The notes beneath the pieces were generated by a model that worked only from the letters and a program-made list of their open reading frames with translations, was not told the origin of the DNA and did no database searches. Positions 4,781-53,043 of a DNA stretch of 64,000 bases are shown in pieces. Each line of letters begins with the position of its first letter. Position 1 is the first letter of the stretch. This stretch comes from Octopus vulgaris (Eukaryota). Both the position numbers and the translations under genes were made by a program. The stretch lies in the NCBI GenBank assembly GCA_951406725.2, contig OX597817.1:155620001-155684000 (forward strand). Direction: 5' to 3'.

Positions 4781-5367
4781 TTAAGTACAGACAGAAGATG
4801 AGGTGAAACAGGTCTGTATATAACAATCTAGGAGACTCTAGTCACTTTAAATTAGTCACTCATAATTAGTAGAATCTATTTTAAAATTGTTTTGTCTGTT
4901 TGCTTCTGTCCCTCTTTCAATTTGTCTTTGTTTCTTTTTTTTTTGTTGTTGTTGTTGCTGCATATAGTCACAACATTTTATGCAATATGGAGGATGGTAG
5001 CAGTGATTAGAGGTGGGTGGGAATACACTTCCTTCTTTTATCATCAATGACACTCACCACCATTACCAGCAAAACCAACATACCGCACCACCGGTAACAA
5101 CAACAAAAAAGTAAGTCAAAGTGTAGCACCTCTAAGTGGTCATCCAACCTGCAAGAAATAGTAGTGCAATTTCCCTCAAATCTCTACCCACTGTTTTAAG
5201 CAAAGAAGGACACATTGGACAATGTTGTTGTAGTTATACTATGACTGAAAATAAGAGGGGATTCTTATATATATATATATATATATATATGTGTACATAT
5301 ATAGGTATGTATATATATATGTATATATATATATTTGTATTTATATGTATATATATATACATATATA

Positions 5368-5402
<35 letters not shown>

Positions 5403-5435
5403 TAATCAAAATAAAAACATGATGCCAAGGATTCA

Positions 5436-5513
5436 GTGGTACATATGTTTCAGGCCTTTATTAGACGGATTTATAACAATGCATAATGTGTGTCTATGGC
5501 CTTCTTCAGCCGC
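5436..5513 (-). ncRNA. Minimal type-I hammerhead ribozyme
   Basis: gcgg-CUGAAGA-aggcc...ggccu-GAAAC-auau-GUA-ccac. Confidence 0.75.
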
Positions 5514-5677
5514 ACACAATTACTACTTCAAGGACATGTATTCTACATCGAGTGAGAGACGAGATGGACGCTTCGCTTTTGTGCTGGTGCCCCACCCTGT
5601 CGTACGCGACTGTGAAGATTTGCATCCCCAACGTAAAACTTATAATATAATACATGTCCTTGAAGTAGTAATTGTGC

Positions 5678-5755
5678 GCAGCTGAAGAAGGCCATAGACA
5701 CACATTATGCATTGTTATAAATCCGCCTAATAAAGGCCCGAAACATATGTACCGC
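5678..5755 (+). ncRNA. Minimal type-I hammerhead ribozyme
   Basis: gcag-CUGAAGA-aggcc...ggccc-GAAAC-auau-GUA-ccgc; consensus of the two arms gives a perfect stem I gcgg/ccgc. Confidence 0.75.
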
Positions 5756-5898
5756 TGAATCCTTGGCATCATATTTTTATGATGCCACTAAATGGTATAT
5801 ACCACTAAATGGTATATACAGGTGCTTACAATTATCAAGTATTCACCCTGAATTTTTGTATATATATATATATATATGTATGTATATATTTATTGTGT

Positions 5899-5990
<92 letters not shown>

Positions 5991-6037: not shown

Positions 6038-6123
6038 CTTCCGACATTTGTTTCAAAGACAACATTGATATTATTCCAAAGGAATAAAATGGTGTAAAAC
6101 AATGTAATCTTCTCATCAGGCAA
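6038..6123 (-). ncRNA. Degenerate type-I hammerhead (PLE-like fragment)
   Basis: CUGAUGA-gaaga...ucuuu-GAAAC-aaau-GUC-ggaa; homologous to 51609-51691. Confidence 0.6.
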
Positions 6124-6275: not shown

Positions 6276-6356
<81 letters not shown>

Positions 6357-6810
6357 TACATATATATATACATATATATGTATATATGTATATATATATG
6401 TATATATATAAGTATATATGTATATGTATGTATGTATATATAGAAAGAAATGTATGTATCTATGGCTCAGTGGTTATGGCATTTGGTTCACGATTGTAAG
6501 GTCGTGAGTTCAATTCCCGGCGATGCGTTGTGTCCTTGAGCAAGACACTTTATTTCATGTTGCTCCAATCCACTCAGCTGGCAAAAATGAGTTGTACCTG
6601 TATTTCAAGGGCCAGCCTTGTCACACTTTGTCTTACGCTGAATCTCCCTAATATTAGGGTTACACATGTCTGTGGATTATTCAGTCACTTGCACGTTAAT
6701 TTCACGAGCAAGCTGTTCTGTTGATTGTATTAGCCGGGACCCTCATCGTCATAACCAGCGGAGTTTTCCTACACATATACATATAGATATACATATATAT
6801 ATATGCATAG

Positions 6811-6889
<79 letters not shown>

Positions 6890-6894
6890 AATAC

Positions 6895-6933
<39 letters not shown>

Positions 6934-6979
6934 CACATATACATATATATACACAAATATATATATATACATATGTATA

Positions 6980-8694
6980 TTCAACACTTTGTATCATATT
7001 GAAGTCATTTTGACATTTGCTACTTTGAGAAAAGTAAAAAGTTAAGTCCTTTAAAAAGCACTCGAGATACGAAGGTAACACCTTCACTGCTTAACTTGAA
7101 CAAAGTGCAAACGAAAGGCAAACATAGCCTATTTTAAATAGTCAGAATATGATTTCTCAATAACTTTTGAAACCCGCTCTTGTTACCCATCGTTGTTGAG
7201 CAATTATCGCTGGCAAATCCAAGTATGTTGTTCATAGATACATCTTCTTTTGTAAGCGTAGATTTGACAGCATCATACAAACCCTGAGATGAACCATTTT
7301 CAACTACAATTGCATCCAGAAGAGCATCCTTGACATTAAGCGATTGTTCATCAAAAAAATGAATAATTATTACTAAGAATTGTGTCACTGAGATGTCCAT
7401 ATTCTCATTTATCAATAATGAAAACTTTTGTTTCTTGAGAATTCTCTCTTGCATATTGTACGTTAATTTAAAATTTTTACATTTGTAAATTTTTAGATAT
7501 CTCACTATTGGCAAAGGCCTTTTTACAAATTTCAGCTAAGTGATTTATATGGACGAAAGGTATGTGATTTTCAGCAACATAACCTGTTAGTAACAAGTCT
7601 GCCTTAGCTACTTTTTCATTTAATGTATCATCTGTTTTTTTTTAACAAGAAATGAATCTAATTTAATAGCAGATTTCACACAATCAAAAGCTTTCTTATT
7701 TTTGGCAGTGTTTTTATGAGCTAACAGCATTGATTTATTAGCATTTTTCAACACAACGTTGCTATAAACTCAGTAGCAGGTGTCAGGATTTTTATCATCT
7801 TGACGTAACCAATGTGTATGTTCAGCATCCCCTAACCACGATTTCTTGAAATTTTTGGTGTACTACTTCCTCTCTTTGGACACACTAATATCTGCCGTTA
7901 CTTCGCAAAGGGTTACAAAACAAAAACACACACTCAAAATGTTGTTAAACAAATTTTAAGTCGCAAGTAACAATCGAAGTGTACACCATCAACACAGCCA
8001 AGTTGTCAACTGGTGGTGTCAGAGTTTCAGACAAGTGTCCAAGCAGCCACCAATGTGGTGTAACTTGTTGTTGCCTGGTATGATGCAAGTATAAACAAAT
8101 AATGAATGCATACATTTGGTAATTACGTCACATACAATATTTGTATTGATAAATTCATTAGTGAGATCATCATCATCATCATCATCATCATCGTTTAGCA
8201 TCCGTTTTCCATGCTAACATGGGTTGGACGGTTCAACTAGAGTCTGTGAAGCCGGAAGGCTGCATCAGGCCCAGTCAGATCTGGCAGTGTTTCTACGGCT
8301 GGATGCCCTTCCTAACGCCTACCACTCCGTGAGTGTAGTGGGTACTTTTTACGTGCCACCTGCACAGGTGCCAGACGGGGCTGGCAAACGGCCACGAACG
8401 GATGGTGCTTTTACGTGCCACCGGCACGGGGGCCAGGCGAGGCTGGCAAGAGATGATTATGGATAATAGAAAGAGATGATTATGGATAATAGAAAGAAAG
8501 TTTACAAAGTATTAGAAGAGGTGAAACTTTGGTACATATTGCATACAAAGAGTATGACACCGAATTCTCTTTAAAAGATAAGTTTGCAGCTAAAACTAAC
8601 TTAAAAACCCAGGTTTAATATAAATTTGGAAATTAAAACCCATAAACCCATCATTTCTCCAATTGGGTGGAAAAACCAATCAGTGGCATCCCTG
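6980..8694 (-). mobile_element. Decayed hAT transposon with transposase remnant (ZNF862/KIAA1586-like)
   Basis: CAGGGATGCCA terminus at 8694; N-terminal zinc-finger remnant (FKKSWL..WL); FSLLINENMDISV, GFASDNCSTTMG and VCHSFAL motifs; stops and frameshifts. Confidence 0.8.
8168..8448 (-). mobile_element. RTE LINE 3' end (family D)
   Basis: (GAT)n tail and GTTAGGAAGGGCATCCAGC motif; other copies 16790-17046(+), 17416-17725(-), 18949-19540(-), 23010-23255(-), 28558-28763(+), 36917-37430(-), 43080-43447(-), 45716-45981(+), 46320-46625(-), 58075-58320(-). Confidence 0.8.
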
Positions 8695-9014
8695 TTCATA
8701 GTATATATAAATTAGTAAAATGTAAAATATGTATTTATACATAAAAATAGGGGTGGGGGTACTGAGGGTATTACTTGCCATGAGGTGGGGCAGTGGCTCA
8801 AAAAGTTTGAGAACCTCTGATCTATGATCATCCCAACATGCAGATCAATGAATAAAATAAATACATTTTAAAAAACTTGAGGAAGCCCATTAGAACCATT
8901 ACTACCAAGAAATAGAATTAATGTTCGTAGAACTCAACTATACCTGAATTGCTCTTATTGGATACTACACTACATAGTCATCAAAATAATTAAGAAATTA
9001 AACAAAGAAATAAC

Positions 9015-32611: not shown

Positions 32612-33890
32612 TTAGGTTATCAAGTATGAAATTTGTAGTAAGGTATATGGTAAAATTTGAGAGCTGCTCATTTTGCGCCATTATTATATTTTAACAATCT
32701 TTATTTTTTGTTAGAAAGTTGACACATCTATTTCTTTATTCTAACTCTTTTTGTGCTTTATAAAGTATTTATAAATCGCTTTTTGCTATTTTTGTTTAGA
32801 GATGGATAAGTCGGAAATTCATACAGTTTTGAAATATGAGTTCTTTCTTGGAAATACAGCATCACAGACAGCTCAGAATATTAATGGAGTATTTCATTCT
32901 AATGTTATTACACAGCAGACAGTATCAAATTGGTTTGCAAAATTTCGTTCTGGTGACTTTGATCTCACAAATGAGCAATGCAGTCAACCAAAAATAAAGG
33001 CGGATAATGACAAACTGAAAGCCACTGTCAAGTCAGATCCATCTCAAAGTACCTATGAATTATCGTTGTTATTTGGTGTTAACAAGCAAACAATATTGAC
33101 TCACCTAGTTCAAATTGGTAACATGAAAAAGTTGGCTAAGTGGGTTCTACATGAACTCAATGAAATCAGAAACAGCAATGTTCGGAAGCCTGCATTATGC
33201 TACTTTCTTGTCACAAAAATTAATCATTTTTGAATCGAATTGTAACATGTGATAAGAAATAGATCCAATACAACAACCGTAAATGTTCAGCACAATGGTT
33301 GGACAATGATCAGCCACCAAAACACAGTCCCAAAAGCAAAATTCTTCAAGGGAAGTTGATGGTGTGTGTTTGGTGGTCTGGTGCAGGTGTGATCCATTAT
33401 GATTTCATTAAACCTGGCTCATCAATCACTGCTGAAGTATATTGCAACAAACTGGACCAAATGATGTAGAAACTTACAAAAAGACAGCCTAGATTAGTCA
33501 ACAGATCCACTCCTATTTTATTGCAAGACAATATCAGACCACACATTGCAGAAATGACATTGGCAAAACTACAGGAGTGGGAGTTGGAAGTTCTCCATCA
33601 TCCACCATACTCACCTGATCTTTTCCCCATTGACTTTTTCCAAAATTTGGATAACTTTTTTATAGGAAAAAATTTAATTCCAATGATGCTGTAAAACAGA
33701 CCTTCCAAGATTTTATTGACTCTAGATTGCCAGGCTTTTACAGTTCCAAGCTGGACAAGCTACTGCTTAAATAGCAAAAGTGTATTGAAAATACGGGTGC
33801 ATACTTTGATGAATAAAACTCTTCCTTGTGTTTATAAAACATTAGCAAACATTTTTGTCTTTTCTACAGAGTTCATACTTGATGACCTAA
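32612..33890 (+). mobile_element. Full-length mariner transposon (1279 bp)
   Basis: TTAGGT(T/C)ATCAAGTATGAA TIRs, TA TSD in (TA)n. Confidence 0.92.
32802..33816 (+). pseudogene. Mariner (Hsmar1/Mos1-like) transposase pseudogene
   Basis: HTH, WVLHEL (WVPHEL), IVTCD, LLQDN, HPPYSPDL, GAYFDE*; frameshifts and stops. Confidence 0.92.
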
Positions 33891-51608: not shown

Positions 51609-51691
51609 CTCTCGACACATGTTTCGAAGGCTGCATATTCCTAATTCCGAAGGAATAAAGGGTGCATTATGCCGCCATCTCATCAGGAAAG
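51609..51691 (-). ncRNA. Type-I hammerhead ribozyme
   Basis: cuuuc-CUGAUGA-gauggcggcaua...uaugcagccuuc-GAAAC-augu-GUC-gagag. Confidence 0.75.
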
Positions 51692-51760: not shown

Positions 51761-51811
<51 letters not shown>

Positions 51812-51904
51812 AAATATTATTAGAGACAAAACCACTATTTTGCAAAACAAACAAGGAAAGACTTAATCAATACATAAAATTTTAATAAATAGTCAAAAAA
51901 ACCG

Positions 51905-51947
51905 CCACTACAATCGTTTCTTGTCTTGATCGACAATCTTCAGGTGG
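51905..51947 (-). ncRNA. Minimal type-I hammerhead ribozyme (mirror copy)
   Basis: Reverse complement of 51998-52040. Confidence 0.85.
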
Positions 51948-51997
51948 ACTTCAATAAGTCAGTTTCAAATTATAATTTGAAACTGACTTATTGAAGT

Positions 51998-52040
51998 CCA
52001 CCTGAAGATTGTCGATCAAGACAAGAAACGATTGTAGTGG
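51998..52040 (+). ncRNA. Minimal type-I hammerhead ribozyme
   Basis: ccac-CUGAAGA-uuguc gaucaa gacaa-GAAAC-gauu-GUA-gugg; core and stems I/II perfect. Confidence 0.85.
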
Positions 52041-52278
52041 CGGTTTTTTTGACTATTTATTAAAATTTTATGTATTGATTAAGTCTTTCCTTGTTTGTTT
52101 TGCAAAATAGTGGTTTTGTCTCTAATAATATTTTATAATATTTTACTATAAAATTGGATTTAATCTGATTTTTTCCCTGTAAATTTGGATTTATTCCCTA
52201 ATATTTATTATACACACATATATATATATGCATACATACATACATACATACATACATACATACATACATACATACGTA

Positions 52279-52320
<42 letters not shown>

Positions 52321-53043
52321 AATTAAATTAAAGATAAAACCACTATTAGGCAAATCAAACAGTGAAAAACATAAACCAAAACATAGAAAAAAATTAATTA
52401 ATATATATATATGTTTAATGATTAAGGTGGCTAGATGCAATTTAAAACCAAAAAAGAAAAAAGTCACCATTACTAAAAGTGACTGAGGTGCAGGGTAGCA
52501 CCAGCATTGCTAGAAACAAGAGTCAAAGTCTCTTTAGCGATGAACAAAGCACAGTTTTATGTACTGACTAGAGACATAACTTCCCCACAGAAAGTGAAGG
52601 CAAAGTGATTTAAGGCAGCTACTGTTAGCCTTTCATGATTCATGATTGCCTACATTCTGGACAACTCTGAAGAAGACCCAAGCATCAACTGATGAACACA
52701 ATACCTTCATACACCTTGAATAAGTAATCTTAAATTAGCCTCTATACAAAGGGCTGTGCTTCAGCATGGTCTTTAGTAATGATGGTTAAAACAAATTTAT
52801 AGATTGTTTTATTTTATTCTAATTTATTTGATATAAAGACTGGGGACATCCATGATGCTTCAAGATCCTCCTTATTCTTTTATTCTTTCATTTGCTTCAG
52901 TCATTTGACTGTAGCCATGCTGGAGCACCACCTTTAGTCAAGGACTTATTCTTTGTAAGCTCTTGCCGAACTGCTAAGTGACAGGGACACAAACACACTA
53001 GCATTGGTTATCAAGCGATGTTGAGGGGACAAACACAGACACA

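What the first reader, a model, noticed from the sequence alone, without database searches (positions are those of the whole stretch)
5411..5780. Second, unrelated head-to-head hammerhead cassette with a 106-bp GC-richer spacer
Seen: 132-bp inverted arms, each with CUGAAGA...GAAAC-auau-GUA. Mutations differ between the arms and their consensus restores stem I (gcgg/ccgc) and stem II (aggcc/ggccu). Loop III ACAUAUGU is self-complementary, as expected for dimerising minimal HHRs. The primary sequence is unrelated to 51808-52137 but the architecture and (TA)n context match. Divergence between arms argues against an assembly artefact. Inference: a recurrent architecture; the spacer may hold a promoter.
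Basis: partly seen in the sequence, partly recalled or inferred. Interest (0 to 1): 0.75.

Follow-up and report, generated by a model that had tools for sequence, protein, structure and literature searches.

The report
Penelope retroelement stub marking its start
The mirror-image ribozyme motifs are two back-to-back, cut-short ends of a Penelope-like jumping gene in what is likely an octopus genome, a known layout, and the "spacer" is the element's own sequence, which likely begins where its RNA starts.

Summary
The inverted arms and both type I hammerhead motifs are real, but this is not a purpose-built cassette. [quoted passage not shown] It consists of a long arm with a 3' tail plus an inverted shorter arm, in (TA)n. 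Inverted 5' copy, tail and opposite-strand hammerhead pairs are published, and this scan noted the same layout before on other DNA. The spacer is element sequence present only in the longer arm; junctions differ copy to copy. Two measured extras: 56 of 60 two-armed insertions carry the tail on exactly one arm, and arm 5' ends pile up at an initiator-like TCATTC (21 of 66 arms reaching it stop within 20 nt; 1 of 45 in the next 20 nt), with GGACG at +27. This copy's long arm starts exactly there. So the spacer likely holds the element's one-way internal promoter, and the arms likely arise by twin priming on one RNA. Each ribozyme here has lost a stem I pair; cleavage and transcription are untested.

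The parts
5266..5401 (.). (TA)n-rich microsatellite, left part of the insertion target
   Evidence: sequence; nearly all arm ends abut (TA)n
5402..5542 (-). Short inverted arm: end of the pseudo-LTR without tail, ending at TTGATTAA next to (TA)n
   Evidence: L001: reference 110-254 on the minus strand
5440..5509 (-). Type I hammerhead motif, predicted cut after GUA at 5440; stem I pair broken by a CpG change at 5437
   Evidence: cleavage untested
5540..5542 (.). Junction of the arms: 3-nt shared ATT
   Evidence: sequence against intact copies
5540..5858 (+). Long arm: pseudo-LTR from the inferred RNA start (+1) through hammerhead to the tail end
5540..5548 (+). Inferred transcription start: A of TCATTC in intact copies (the TC is replaced by the junction here), 212 nt before the cut site; hotspot of arm 5' ends
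   Evidence: initiator consensus recalled
5543..5648 (+). The 'spacer': element sequence (+4 to +109) present in the longer arm only
5566..5570 (+). GGACG at +27 to +31, DPE-like; +24 to +35 has no subfamily-level variation
   Evidence: Penelope DPE RGACGTGY in PMC2377424 passage; one base off the recalled +28
5618..5625 (+). Octamer ATTTGCAT inside a conserved block (+75 to +93); role unknown
   Evidence: motif name recalled
5682..5751 (+). Type I hammerhead motif with long two-part stem II, predicted cut after GUA at 5751; stem I pair broken by a CpG change at 5680
   Evidence: cleavage untested
5781..5858 (+). Tail = start of the element's 5' UTR; here with about 26 nt lost at the arm-tail border and a 17-nt duplication (5782-5798 / 5799-5815)
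5859..5980 (.). (TA)n microsatellite, right part of the insertion target
   Evidence: sequence

Best explanation
This is a decaying, 5'-truncated insertion of a Penelope-like retrotransposon with Hydra-clade motifs: two head-to-head copies of its hammerhead-bearing end, likely made in one insertion event by two reverse-transcription starts on an RNA that likely begins at the left edge of the spacer. SHOWN: the arm sequence is the end of a 4,759-bp unit (pseudo-LTR, tail/5' UTR, ORF, 2-kb 3' UTR, pseudo-LTR); the spacer is the part of that end held by only one arm; arms end at two fixed 3' points (about +42 and +110 to +122 from the cut) in (TA)n, one arm each; 5' ends pile up 212 nt before the cut. 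INFERRED (about 0.65): that point is the RNA's 5' end, set by an internal initiator/DPE-like promoter. INFERRED (about 0.55): the element's enzyme cuts both strands of a (TA)n target, primes one strand at the tail end and the other at the pseudo-LTR end of the same uncut RNA, and the two cDNAs stop at different points and are joined by short shared letters; here one ran to +1 and the other stopped near +109, leaving the spacer. INFERRED: the ribozyme serves the parent transcript, as a dimer through the palindromic stem III or with protein help; this copy is a relic.
For: Link to the ORF: L032 joins the nuclease end to the arm, 94.6% like the window's spacer+arm; 17 of 20 nuclease-bearing loci hold the arm downstream; L202 holds two direct pseudo-LTRs 4,759 bp apart around the ORF. 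Protein: model pLDDT 78, top fold matches are telomerase RTs; RW, DKT, CxCX5C, CxxC, CxH motifs as listed for Hydra. Tail runs into the ORF start in 12 of 25 loci. One tail in 56 of 60 two-armed insertions (after removing 9 duplicate rows and re-classing L057 by hand); on the longer arm in 30, the shorter in 19, undetermined in 6 of 55. Inverted pieces made of tail only, ending where the other arm's 3' end begins (L026, L032, L083). Arms of one insertion agree at subfamily sites in 182 of 188 cases and share 8 rare alleles. Hotspot: 21 of 66 arms stop in -9..+10, 11 of them in -3..+1; 42 of 884 arm-bins elsewhere; 1 of 45 in the next bin upstream (Fisher 6e-5); seen in both samples, 13 and 8. 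Decay: 4 of 6 arm differences are CpG transitions. Literature: inverted copy and one-sided tail; opposite-strand hammerheads 100-700 bp apart; two RT start sites, both strands cut and extended, uncut RNA as template; internal promoter in the pseudo-LTR.
Against: No covariation proof for the ribozyme: 2 pairs with changes on both sides, reached by 216 of 500 shuffles; the hammerhead fold is not the lowest-energy fold of any of 4 copies tested; no Rfam match. Pfam names neither RT nor GIY-YIG in the ORF itself; GIY-YIG is hit in 1 of 20 aligned homologs. No tree with published Hydra sequences was built. No intact ORF was seen for the window's own subfamily (L032 is frameshifted; L065's arm is 83% alike). 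GGACG is one base off the recalled DPE position. The bin +11..+30 is also raised (10 of 76), and some stops use letters shared between the two arms, so the hotspot is not a single base. 4 of 60 two-armed insertions break the one-tail rule. Samples are the best-scoring 40 hits of each search, so young copies are favoured.
Confidence: 0.9

Rival explanations
1. Same element, but the inverted arm is made by fold-back (self-priming) of one cDNA or antisense template, and the endonuclease later trims the tail from one arm.
For: Proposed in PMC3846280 (passage). Gap-free palindromes exist (L133, L174); the 51808 family shows small hairpins at junctions; arms share rare alleles; the window's own tail border holds a short fold-back.
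Against: The tail is on the shorter arm in 19 of 49 decidable cases, and tail-only inverted pieces sit at the 5' end of tailless arms (L026, L032, L083, L151); fold-back from the 5' end cannot make these without a second priming event.
Confidence: 0.25
2. Same element, but the 5'-end hotspot is a place where reverse transcriptase stalls, or where long palindromes are later deleted, not an RNA start; the spacer then has no promoter.
For: The hotspot lies at the border between the GC-richer spacer and a pyrimidine-rich tract; stops are spread over about 30 nt and several use microhomology between arms. No RNA ends could be read.
Against: Sharp edge: 11 stops in -3..+1, 1 in -29..-10; single-armed copies with no palindrome stop there too (L130, L139, L176, L179); the site reads TCATTC and is conserved with GATGGACG at fixed spacing across subfamilies; sampled ORF-linked copies have longer pseudo-LTRs, so the edge is not inherited from a short master.
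Confidence: 0.3
3. One reading: a self-contained mobile or functional cassette in which a two-way promoter drives two hammerheads that dimerise.
For: Palindromic stem III invariant, self-duplex -7.0 kcal/mol; three loci share one junction (L007, L009, L014); a two-way promoter was suggested for a rotifer Penelope.
Against: Junctions otherwise differ; the three shared junctions have the tail on different arms and sit on a repeated GTAGAAT; the spacer is sense-strand element sequence; both ribozymes here carry stem I lesions; the left arm lacks the start site.
Confidence: 0.03

Closest known systems
Hydra clade of Penelope-like elements, incl. Hydra-1_Obim of Octopus bimaculoides (Craig et al. 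2021, PMC8557442)
   Same: C-terminal nuclease, RW/DKT/CxCX5C/CxxC/CxH motifs, type I hammerhead near the 3' end with a mismatch after the core in many members, (TA)n targets, inverted 5' copy (noted for Penelope-13_HM).
   Different: A different family: hammerhead sequence unlike Hydra-1_Obim's, our 12-nt and 6-aa words absent from that supplement; unit 4.76 kb with a 2-kb 3' UTR against 'generally <3 kb'; 51 nt between core halves; tail about 75 nt against 30-40 bp; RWA for RWK; N-rich inserts in the ORF.
Dual minimal hammerheads on opposite strands in Schistosoma mansoni PLEs (Cervera and de la Pena 2014, PMC4209133)
   Same: Pairs 100-700 bp apart on opposite strands, tied to truncated PLEs; palindromic positions 15.2-16.2 and loop 3; dimer proposed.
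   Different: Here a 4-nt loop III is kept, stem II is long and two-part, and A-C replaces the usual G10.1-C11.1.
Poseidon PAc of Anolis (Frangieh et al. 2024, PMC11167929)
   Same: Two internal RT start sites bounding the tail; AT-rich targets; hammerhead upstream of the start sites and uncut in inserted copies.
   Different: Other clade; in PAc the ORF starts inside the hammerhead, here about 190 nt after the cut; in the parts read, the two sites are not tied to one arm each.
Penelope of Drosophila virilis (Schostak et al. 2008, PMC2377424)
   Same: TATA-less internal promoter in the pseudo-LTR with Inr and an RGACG-type downstream element.
   Different: There shown by reporters; here inferred from where copies end. 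No intron was looked for.
L1 twin priming (recalled)
   Same: Two primers on one RNA give an inverted 5' piece joined by microhomology; tail-only inverted pieces look the same.
   Different: L1 pieces do not overlap; here both arms usually hold the same sequence, which would need strand displacement or a second pseudo-LTR.
Non-LTR retrozymes (bioRxiv 10.64898/2026.07.22.740005)
   Same: Non-coding, type I hammerhead, PLE-related.
   Different: Retrozymes are head-to-tail tandem units; this is head-to-head and has a coding parent.

Membership tests
EN+ Penelope-like elements | Single ORF with telomerase-like RT | tested here: met
   835-aa ORF in L065; top six fold matches are telomerase RTs; QFDI, MGS, YRDD motifs
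EN+ Penelope-like elements | C-terminal GIY-YIG endonuclease | tested here: met
   VIY...YIG, R, E, N pattern aligned; Pfam GIY-YIG in 1 of 20 homologs, none in the ORF itself, so support is by motif
EN+ Penelope-like elements | Pseudo-LTR from partial tandem | tested here: met
   L202 direct repeats 4,759 bp apart
EN+ Penelope-like elements | Inverted 5'-truncated copy and one-sided tail | tested here: met
   56 of 60
Hydra clade | RWK motif, GxKF/Y not conserved | tested here: inconclusive
   RWA in this family, RWK in most aligned homologs; GxKF/Y not seen
Hydra clade | DKT in place of DKG | tested here: met
   ADKTG
Hydra clade | CxCX5C linker; CxxC and CxH around E and N; no CCHH | tested here: met
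   CNCICASEC, CQLC, CIH; no conserved CCHH by eye
Hydra clade | (TA)n targets and a canonical hammerhead | tested here: met
Hydra clade | Length generally under 3 kb | tested here: not met
   4,759 bp; a tendency in the paper, not a diagnostic motif
Hydra clade | RT phylogeny with reference elements | not tested
   reference sequences were not obtained
Type I hammerhead ribozyme | Conserved core CUGANGA, GAAA, UH | tested here: met
   each core column 76-79 of 79; intact in both window arms
Type I hammerhead ribozyme | Three stems supported by covariation | tested here: inconclusive
   92.8% of cells paired; common variants keep pairs on one side (A-U/G-U 43/29, U-G/U-A 61/11, G-U/A-U 47/25); both-side changes not above shuffles
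Type I hammerhead ribozyme | Self-cleavage | not testable with these tools
   needs an assay
Non-LTR retrozyme | Head-to-tail tandem non-coding units | tested here: not met
   head-to-head, coding parent
MITE / fixed fold-back element | Constant length and junction across copies | tested here: not met
   cut-to-cut 100-7,741 nt
Inr + DPE core promoter | RNA 5' ends at the Inr A; DPE at +28 | tested here: inconclusive
   copy ends cluster at the A; GGACG at +27; no RNA ends available

The most novel reading that the evidence does not exclude
Penelope-like elements insert by twin priming on one RNA, one fixed start site per target strand, and copies primed in the first pseudo-LTR run off the capped RNA end. 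The thousands of fold-back stubs then map each family's transcription start, and a start-to-tail stub such as this long arm carries promoter, ribozyme and both priming sites, so it can act as a SINE-like mini-element; the 51808 family, whose sampled copies all stop at one point, would be such an element.
Probability: 0.4. Interest if true: 0.6.

Novelty: new member of a known kind. Interest (0 to 1): 0.32.

Why it matters
As an object it is ordinary: one worn stub among more than a thousand, in a published layout. What could matter is the counting. How Penelope-like elements make their inverted ends and tails is called open in the papers read. A near-strict one-tail rule, tail-only inverted pieces and a sharp 5'-end edge give a specific, testable model and a way to read promoter positions from genome sequence alone. 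The family has near-identical young copies and an uninterrupted 835-aa reading frame, so the clade, for which the paper read reports no biochemical work, can be tested in vitro.

Tried and rejected
Rfam: no hammerhead among the 150 listed of 184 window matches or at E<=10 on 5400-5860. RNAalifold on 79 arms did not return the hammerhead fold. First guess of Nematis clade, dropped after reading the Hydra diagnosis. Pfam and PDB sequence searches of the ORF gave nothing useful; the profile gave a retron RT at E 0.003. Spacer as coding: frames are short and the true ORF ends 2 kb upstream. Sequencing runs: no RNA holder listed; contigs of four runs guessed to be RNA cover the pseudo-LTR but cannot show ends, strand or level; no evidence either way. 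A cap-derived G before +1 could not be told from letters of the opposite arm. One search was swamped by simple repeats; one search held a reference without the start motif and was redone; several 'ends' beyond -190 are alignment breaks in long arms, which is why one search is cited. No ORF found for the 51808 family in two wider stretches; one search added nothing. Paper searches for Penelope + twin priming + inverted (2 papers listed, neither on this by title or abstract start), Penelope + pLTR + truncated + transcription start and octopus + Penelope + hammerhead showed no report of the hotspot or of this family; the library lacks most subscription papers and Repbase, and only 1 of 59 parts of the Craig supplement was read, plus two term searches. 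No predicted complex was run.

Full report
Observation. The region holds an inverted repeat with arms at 5411-5545 and 5646-5780, 135 nt, 95% complementary, inside (TA)n. Each arm has a type I hammerhead core with AUAU in loop III (5682-5751 plus, 5509-5440 minus); the spacer is 106 nt and 49% GC. The genome is 2.8 Gb in 227 contigs; this, and named homologs from Argonauta and Octopus, suggest an octopus (inference). The stretch is a high-copy repeat: 1,417 candidates, 40 scored.

The cassette is not a unit. In the 30 loci fetched, arm lengths and junctions differ from copy to copy, and the spacer is simply the next stretch upstream of the arm, held by the longer arm only. Longer copies continue through about 2 kb of low-complexity non-coding DNA into the end of a nuclease-like ORF (L032). 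Of 20 loci picked by that ORF end, 17 hold the hammerhead arm downstream, and L065 has an uninterrupted 835-aa frame. L202 has two direct pseudo-LTRs 4,759 bp apart around the ORF and an inverted copy in front. In 12 of 25 loci picked by the ORF start, the sequence after the arm runs on into the ORF: the roughly 75-nt extension on the window's right arm (to about 5858) is the tail, that is the start of the 5' UTR.

The protein. Pfam and PDB sequence searches name nothing, but the model (pLDDT 78) matches telomerase RTs first. The alignment with 19 of the 32 homologs shows RW, DKT, the RT motifs, CxCX5C, YIG, CxxC and CxH, the diagnosis of the Hydra clade in PMC8557442 (section 11), whose members insert in (TA)n and carry hammerheads. 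Its supplement lists Hydra-1_Obim with a different hammerhead and lacks our words. So this is likely a further Hydra family, longer than the published ones; no tree was built.

The layout is published. Inverted 5'-truncated copy and one-sided tail: PMC8557442 (passages) and PMC3846280 (passages). Hammerhead pairs 100-700 bp apart on opposite strands, palindromic helix III, dimer model, low activity: PMC4209133 (parts 1-2 of 4). Two internal RT start sites bounding the tail, both strands cut and extended, uncut RNA as template, protein-assisted ribozyme: PMC11167929 (parts 1-2 of 4). Internal promoter in the pseudo-LTR: PMC2377424 (passages) and PMC8557442 section 10. Retrozymes: bioRxiv 10.64898/2026.07.22.740005 (part 1 of 5). 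Earlier notes of this scan reached the same identity on other DNA; my reading was set before that call, and no note fitted the start-site words.

The ribozyme. In 79 aligned arms (79 of the 95 listed, duplicates mostly left out, plus the two window arms among them) every core column is kept in 76-79, loop III in all. Stem I extends past two bulges, and its common variants keep pairing on one side; stem II is GGCC/GGCC behind an A-C mismatch, then a second helix. Changes on both sides do not exceed shuffles, so structure is consistent but not proven; the family is too young. Of six true arm differences four are CpG transitions, and each arm has lost one stem I pair: neutral decay. A transcript over both arms would be one long hairpin, so the two motifs cannot dimerise in cis.

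Tail rule. One search listed 69 head-to-head pairs; 8 rows are the same loci fetched twice and one is a tandem duplicate, leaving 60. After re-classing L057 by hand, 56 have the tail on exactly one arm, 3 on none (L057, L068, L155), 1 possibly on both (L150). The tail is on the longer arm in 30, the shorter in 19, undecided in 6 of 55. Some inverted pieces are tail only and end where the other arm's 3' end lies (L026, L032, L083). Arms of one insertion agree at subfamily sites in 182 of 188 comparisons and share 8 rare alleles against 47 unshared (47 pairs), so both come from one source. Twin priming on one RNA, one start site per strand, explains all four facts (inference); fold-back with trimming explains the sharing but not the tail-only pieces; later gene conversion between arms is not excluded.

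Start-site edge. Two searches with short queries around the cut site, which do not reach the spacer, gave 102 arms. Of 66 arms that reach the 20-nt bin around the A of TCATTC, 21 stop there, 11 within -3..+1; the next bin upstream stops 1 of 45; all other bins together 42 of 884; the bin +11..+30 is raised at 10 of 76; 43 arms pass beyond -40 (contexts). TCATTC fits the initiator consensus (recalled), and GATGGACG at +24 to +31 is kept at fixed spacing across subfamilies while neighbours vary (80 distinct sequences); it resembles the RGACG of Penelope's DPE but sits one base before the recalled +28. The window's long arm begins exactly at this A (5540). The likely reading: RNA starts here, copies primed in the first pseudo-LTR run off its end, and the spacer is the first 100 nt of the transcript, kept by one arm only. 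Stalling or later deletion remains a rival. No RNA ends could be read.

The other cassette. The 51808-52137 family is unrelated in sequence and younger (the 40 scored candidates all match at 100%). In its 30 loci (26 distinct) arms stop within about 10 nt of one point some 30 nt before the core, tails are one-sided, and tail-only inverted pieces occur (read by eye; the query itself required reaching that point). If that point is its RNA start, a start close to the core gives a gap-free palindrome and a distant start gives a spacer, which unites the two findings. Its coding parent was not found.

Verdict. Real, explained, and a known kind: a stub of a new Hydra-like Penelope family. The one-tail rule and the start-site edge are modest additions that I did not find in the searches made and that are directly testable. 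Interest 0.32.

Noticed in passing
window 51808-52213: Unrelated, very young hammerhead family; right arm has a tail to about 52213; sampled copies all stop at one 5' point, some with tiny junction hairpins; no coding parent found, possibly non-autonomous.
   Followed up: partly
window 6043-6119 (-) and 51614-51686 (-): Two more hammerhead cores (CUGAUGA, GUC) of a third, older family; they align with each other over about 130 nt and end in (TA)n.
   Followed up: partly
window 52320-52374: 55-nt piece 78% like 51812-51866, a worn relative of the 51808 family.
   Followed up: no
window 5618-5625: Octamer ATTTGCAT in the most conserved block of the spacer (+75 to +93); recalls the snRNA-type promoter of newt hammerhead satellite DNA (recalled, not checked).
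   Followed up: partly
alignment A2 columns 11-16 (window about 5652-5657): ACAUGU upstream of the core can pair with the stem III palindrome and is kept across copies; a possible off-switch for the ribozyme.
   Followed up: no
L065:2951-5458: The ORF has two asparagine/arginine-rich inserts, predicted disordered (residues about 484-548 and 627-692), absent from most homologs; N-rich inserts are described for rotifer Penelopes.
   Followed up: no
L068:397-2901 and 6306-8822: A 2.5-kb inverted duplication that includes flanking DNA; L065, L066 and L068 share one junction and may be duplicates of one insertion or assembly doubles.
   Followed up: no
L095: Several short tandem and inverted pieces spanning cut site, tail and ORF start; one begins a few bases before the predicted cut.
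   Followed up: no
L007 / L008: A whole two-armed stub duplicated in tandem 671 bp apart.
   Followed up: no
L043:4731-5627, L047:8306-9002, L062:1317-3197: Fragments of other Penelope-like families next to or inside copies of this one; L043's has a weak GIY-YIG match.
   Followed up: no
window 32775-33233 (+) and 7134-7535 (-): Mariner-type transposase fragment (HTH_48, E 7e-15) and a DUF4371 fragment.
   Followed up: partly
window about 6460-6770: A repeat with a tRNA-like head, likely a SINE (by eye; ARAGORN finds no tRNA in the window).
   Followed up: no
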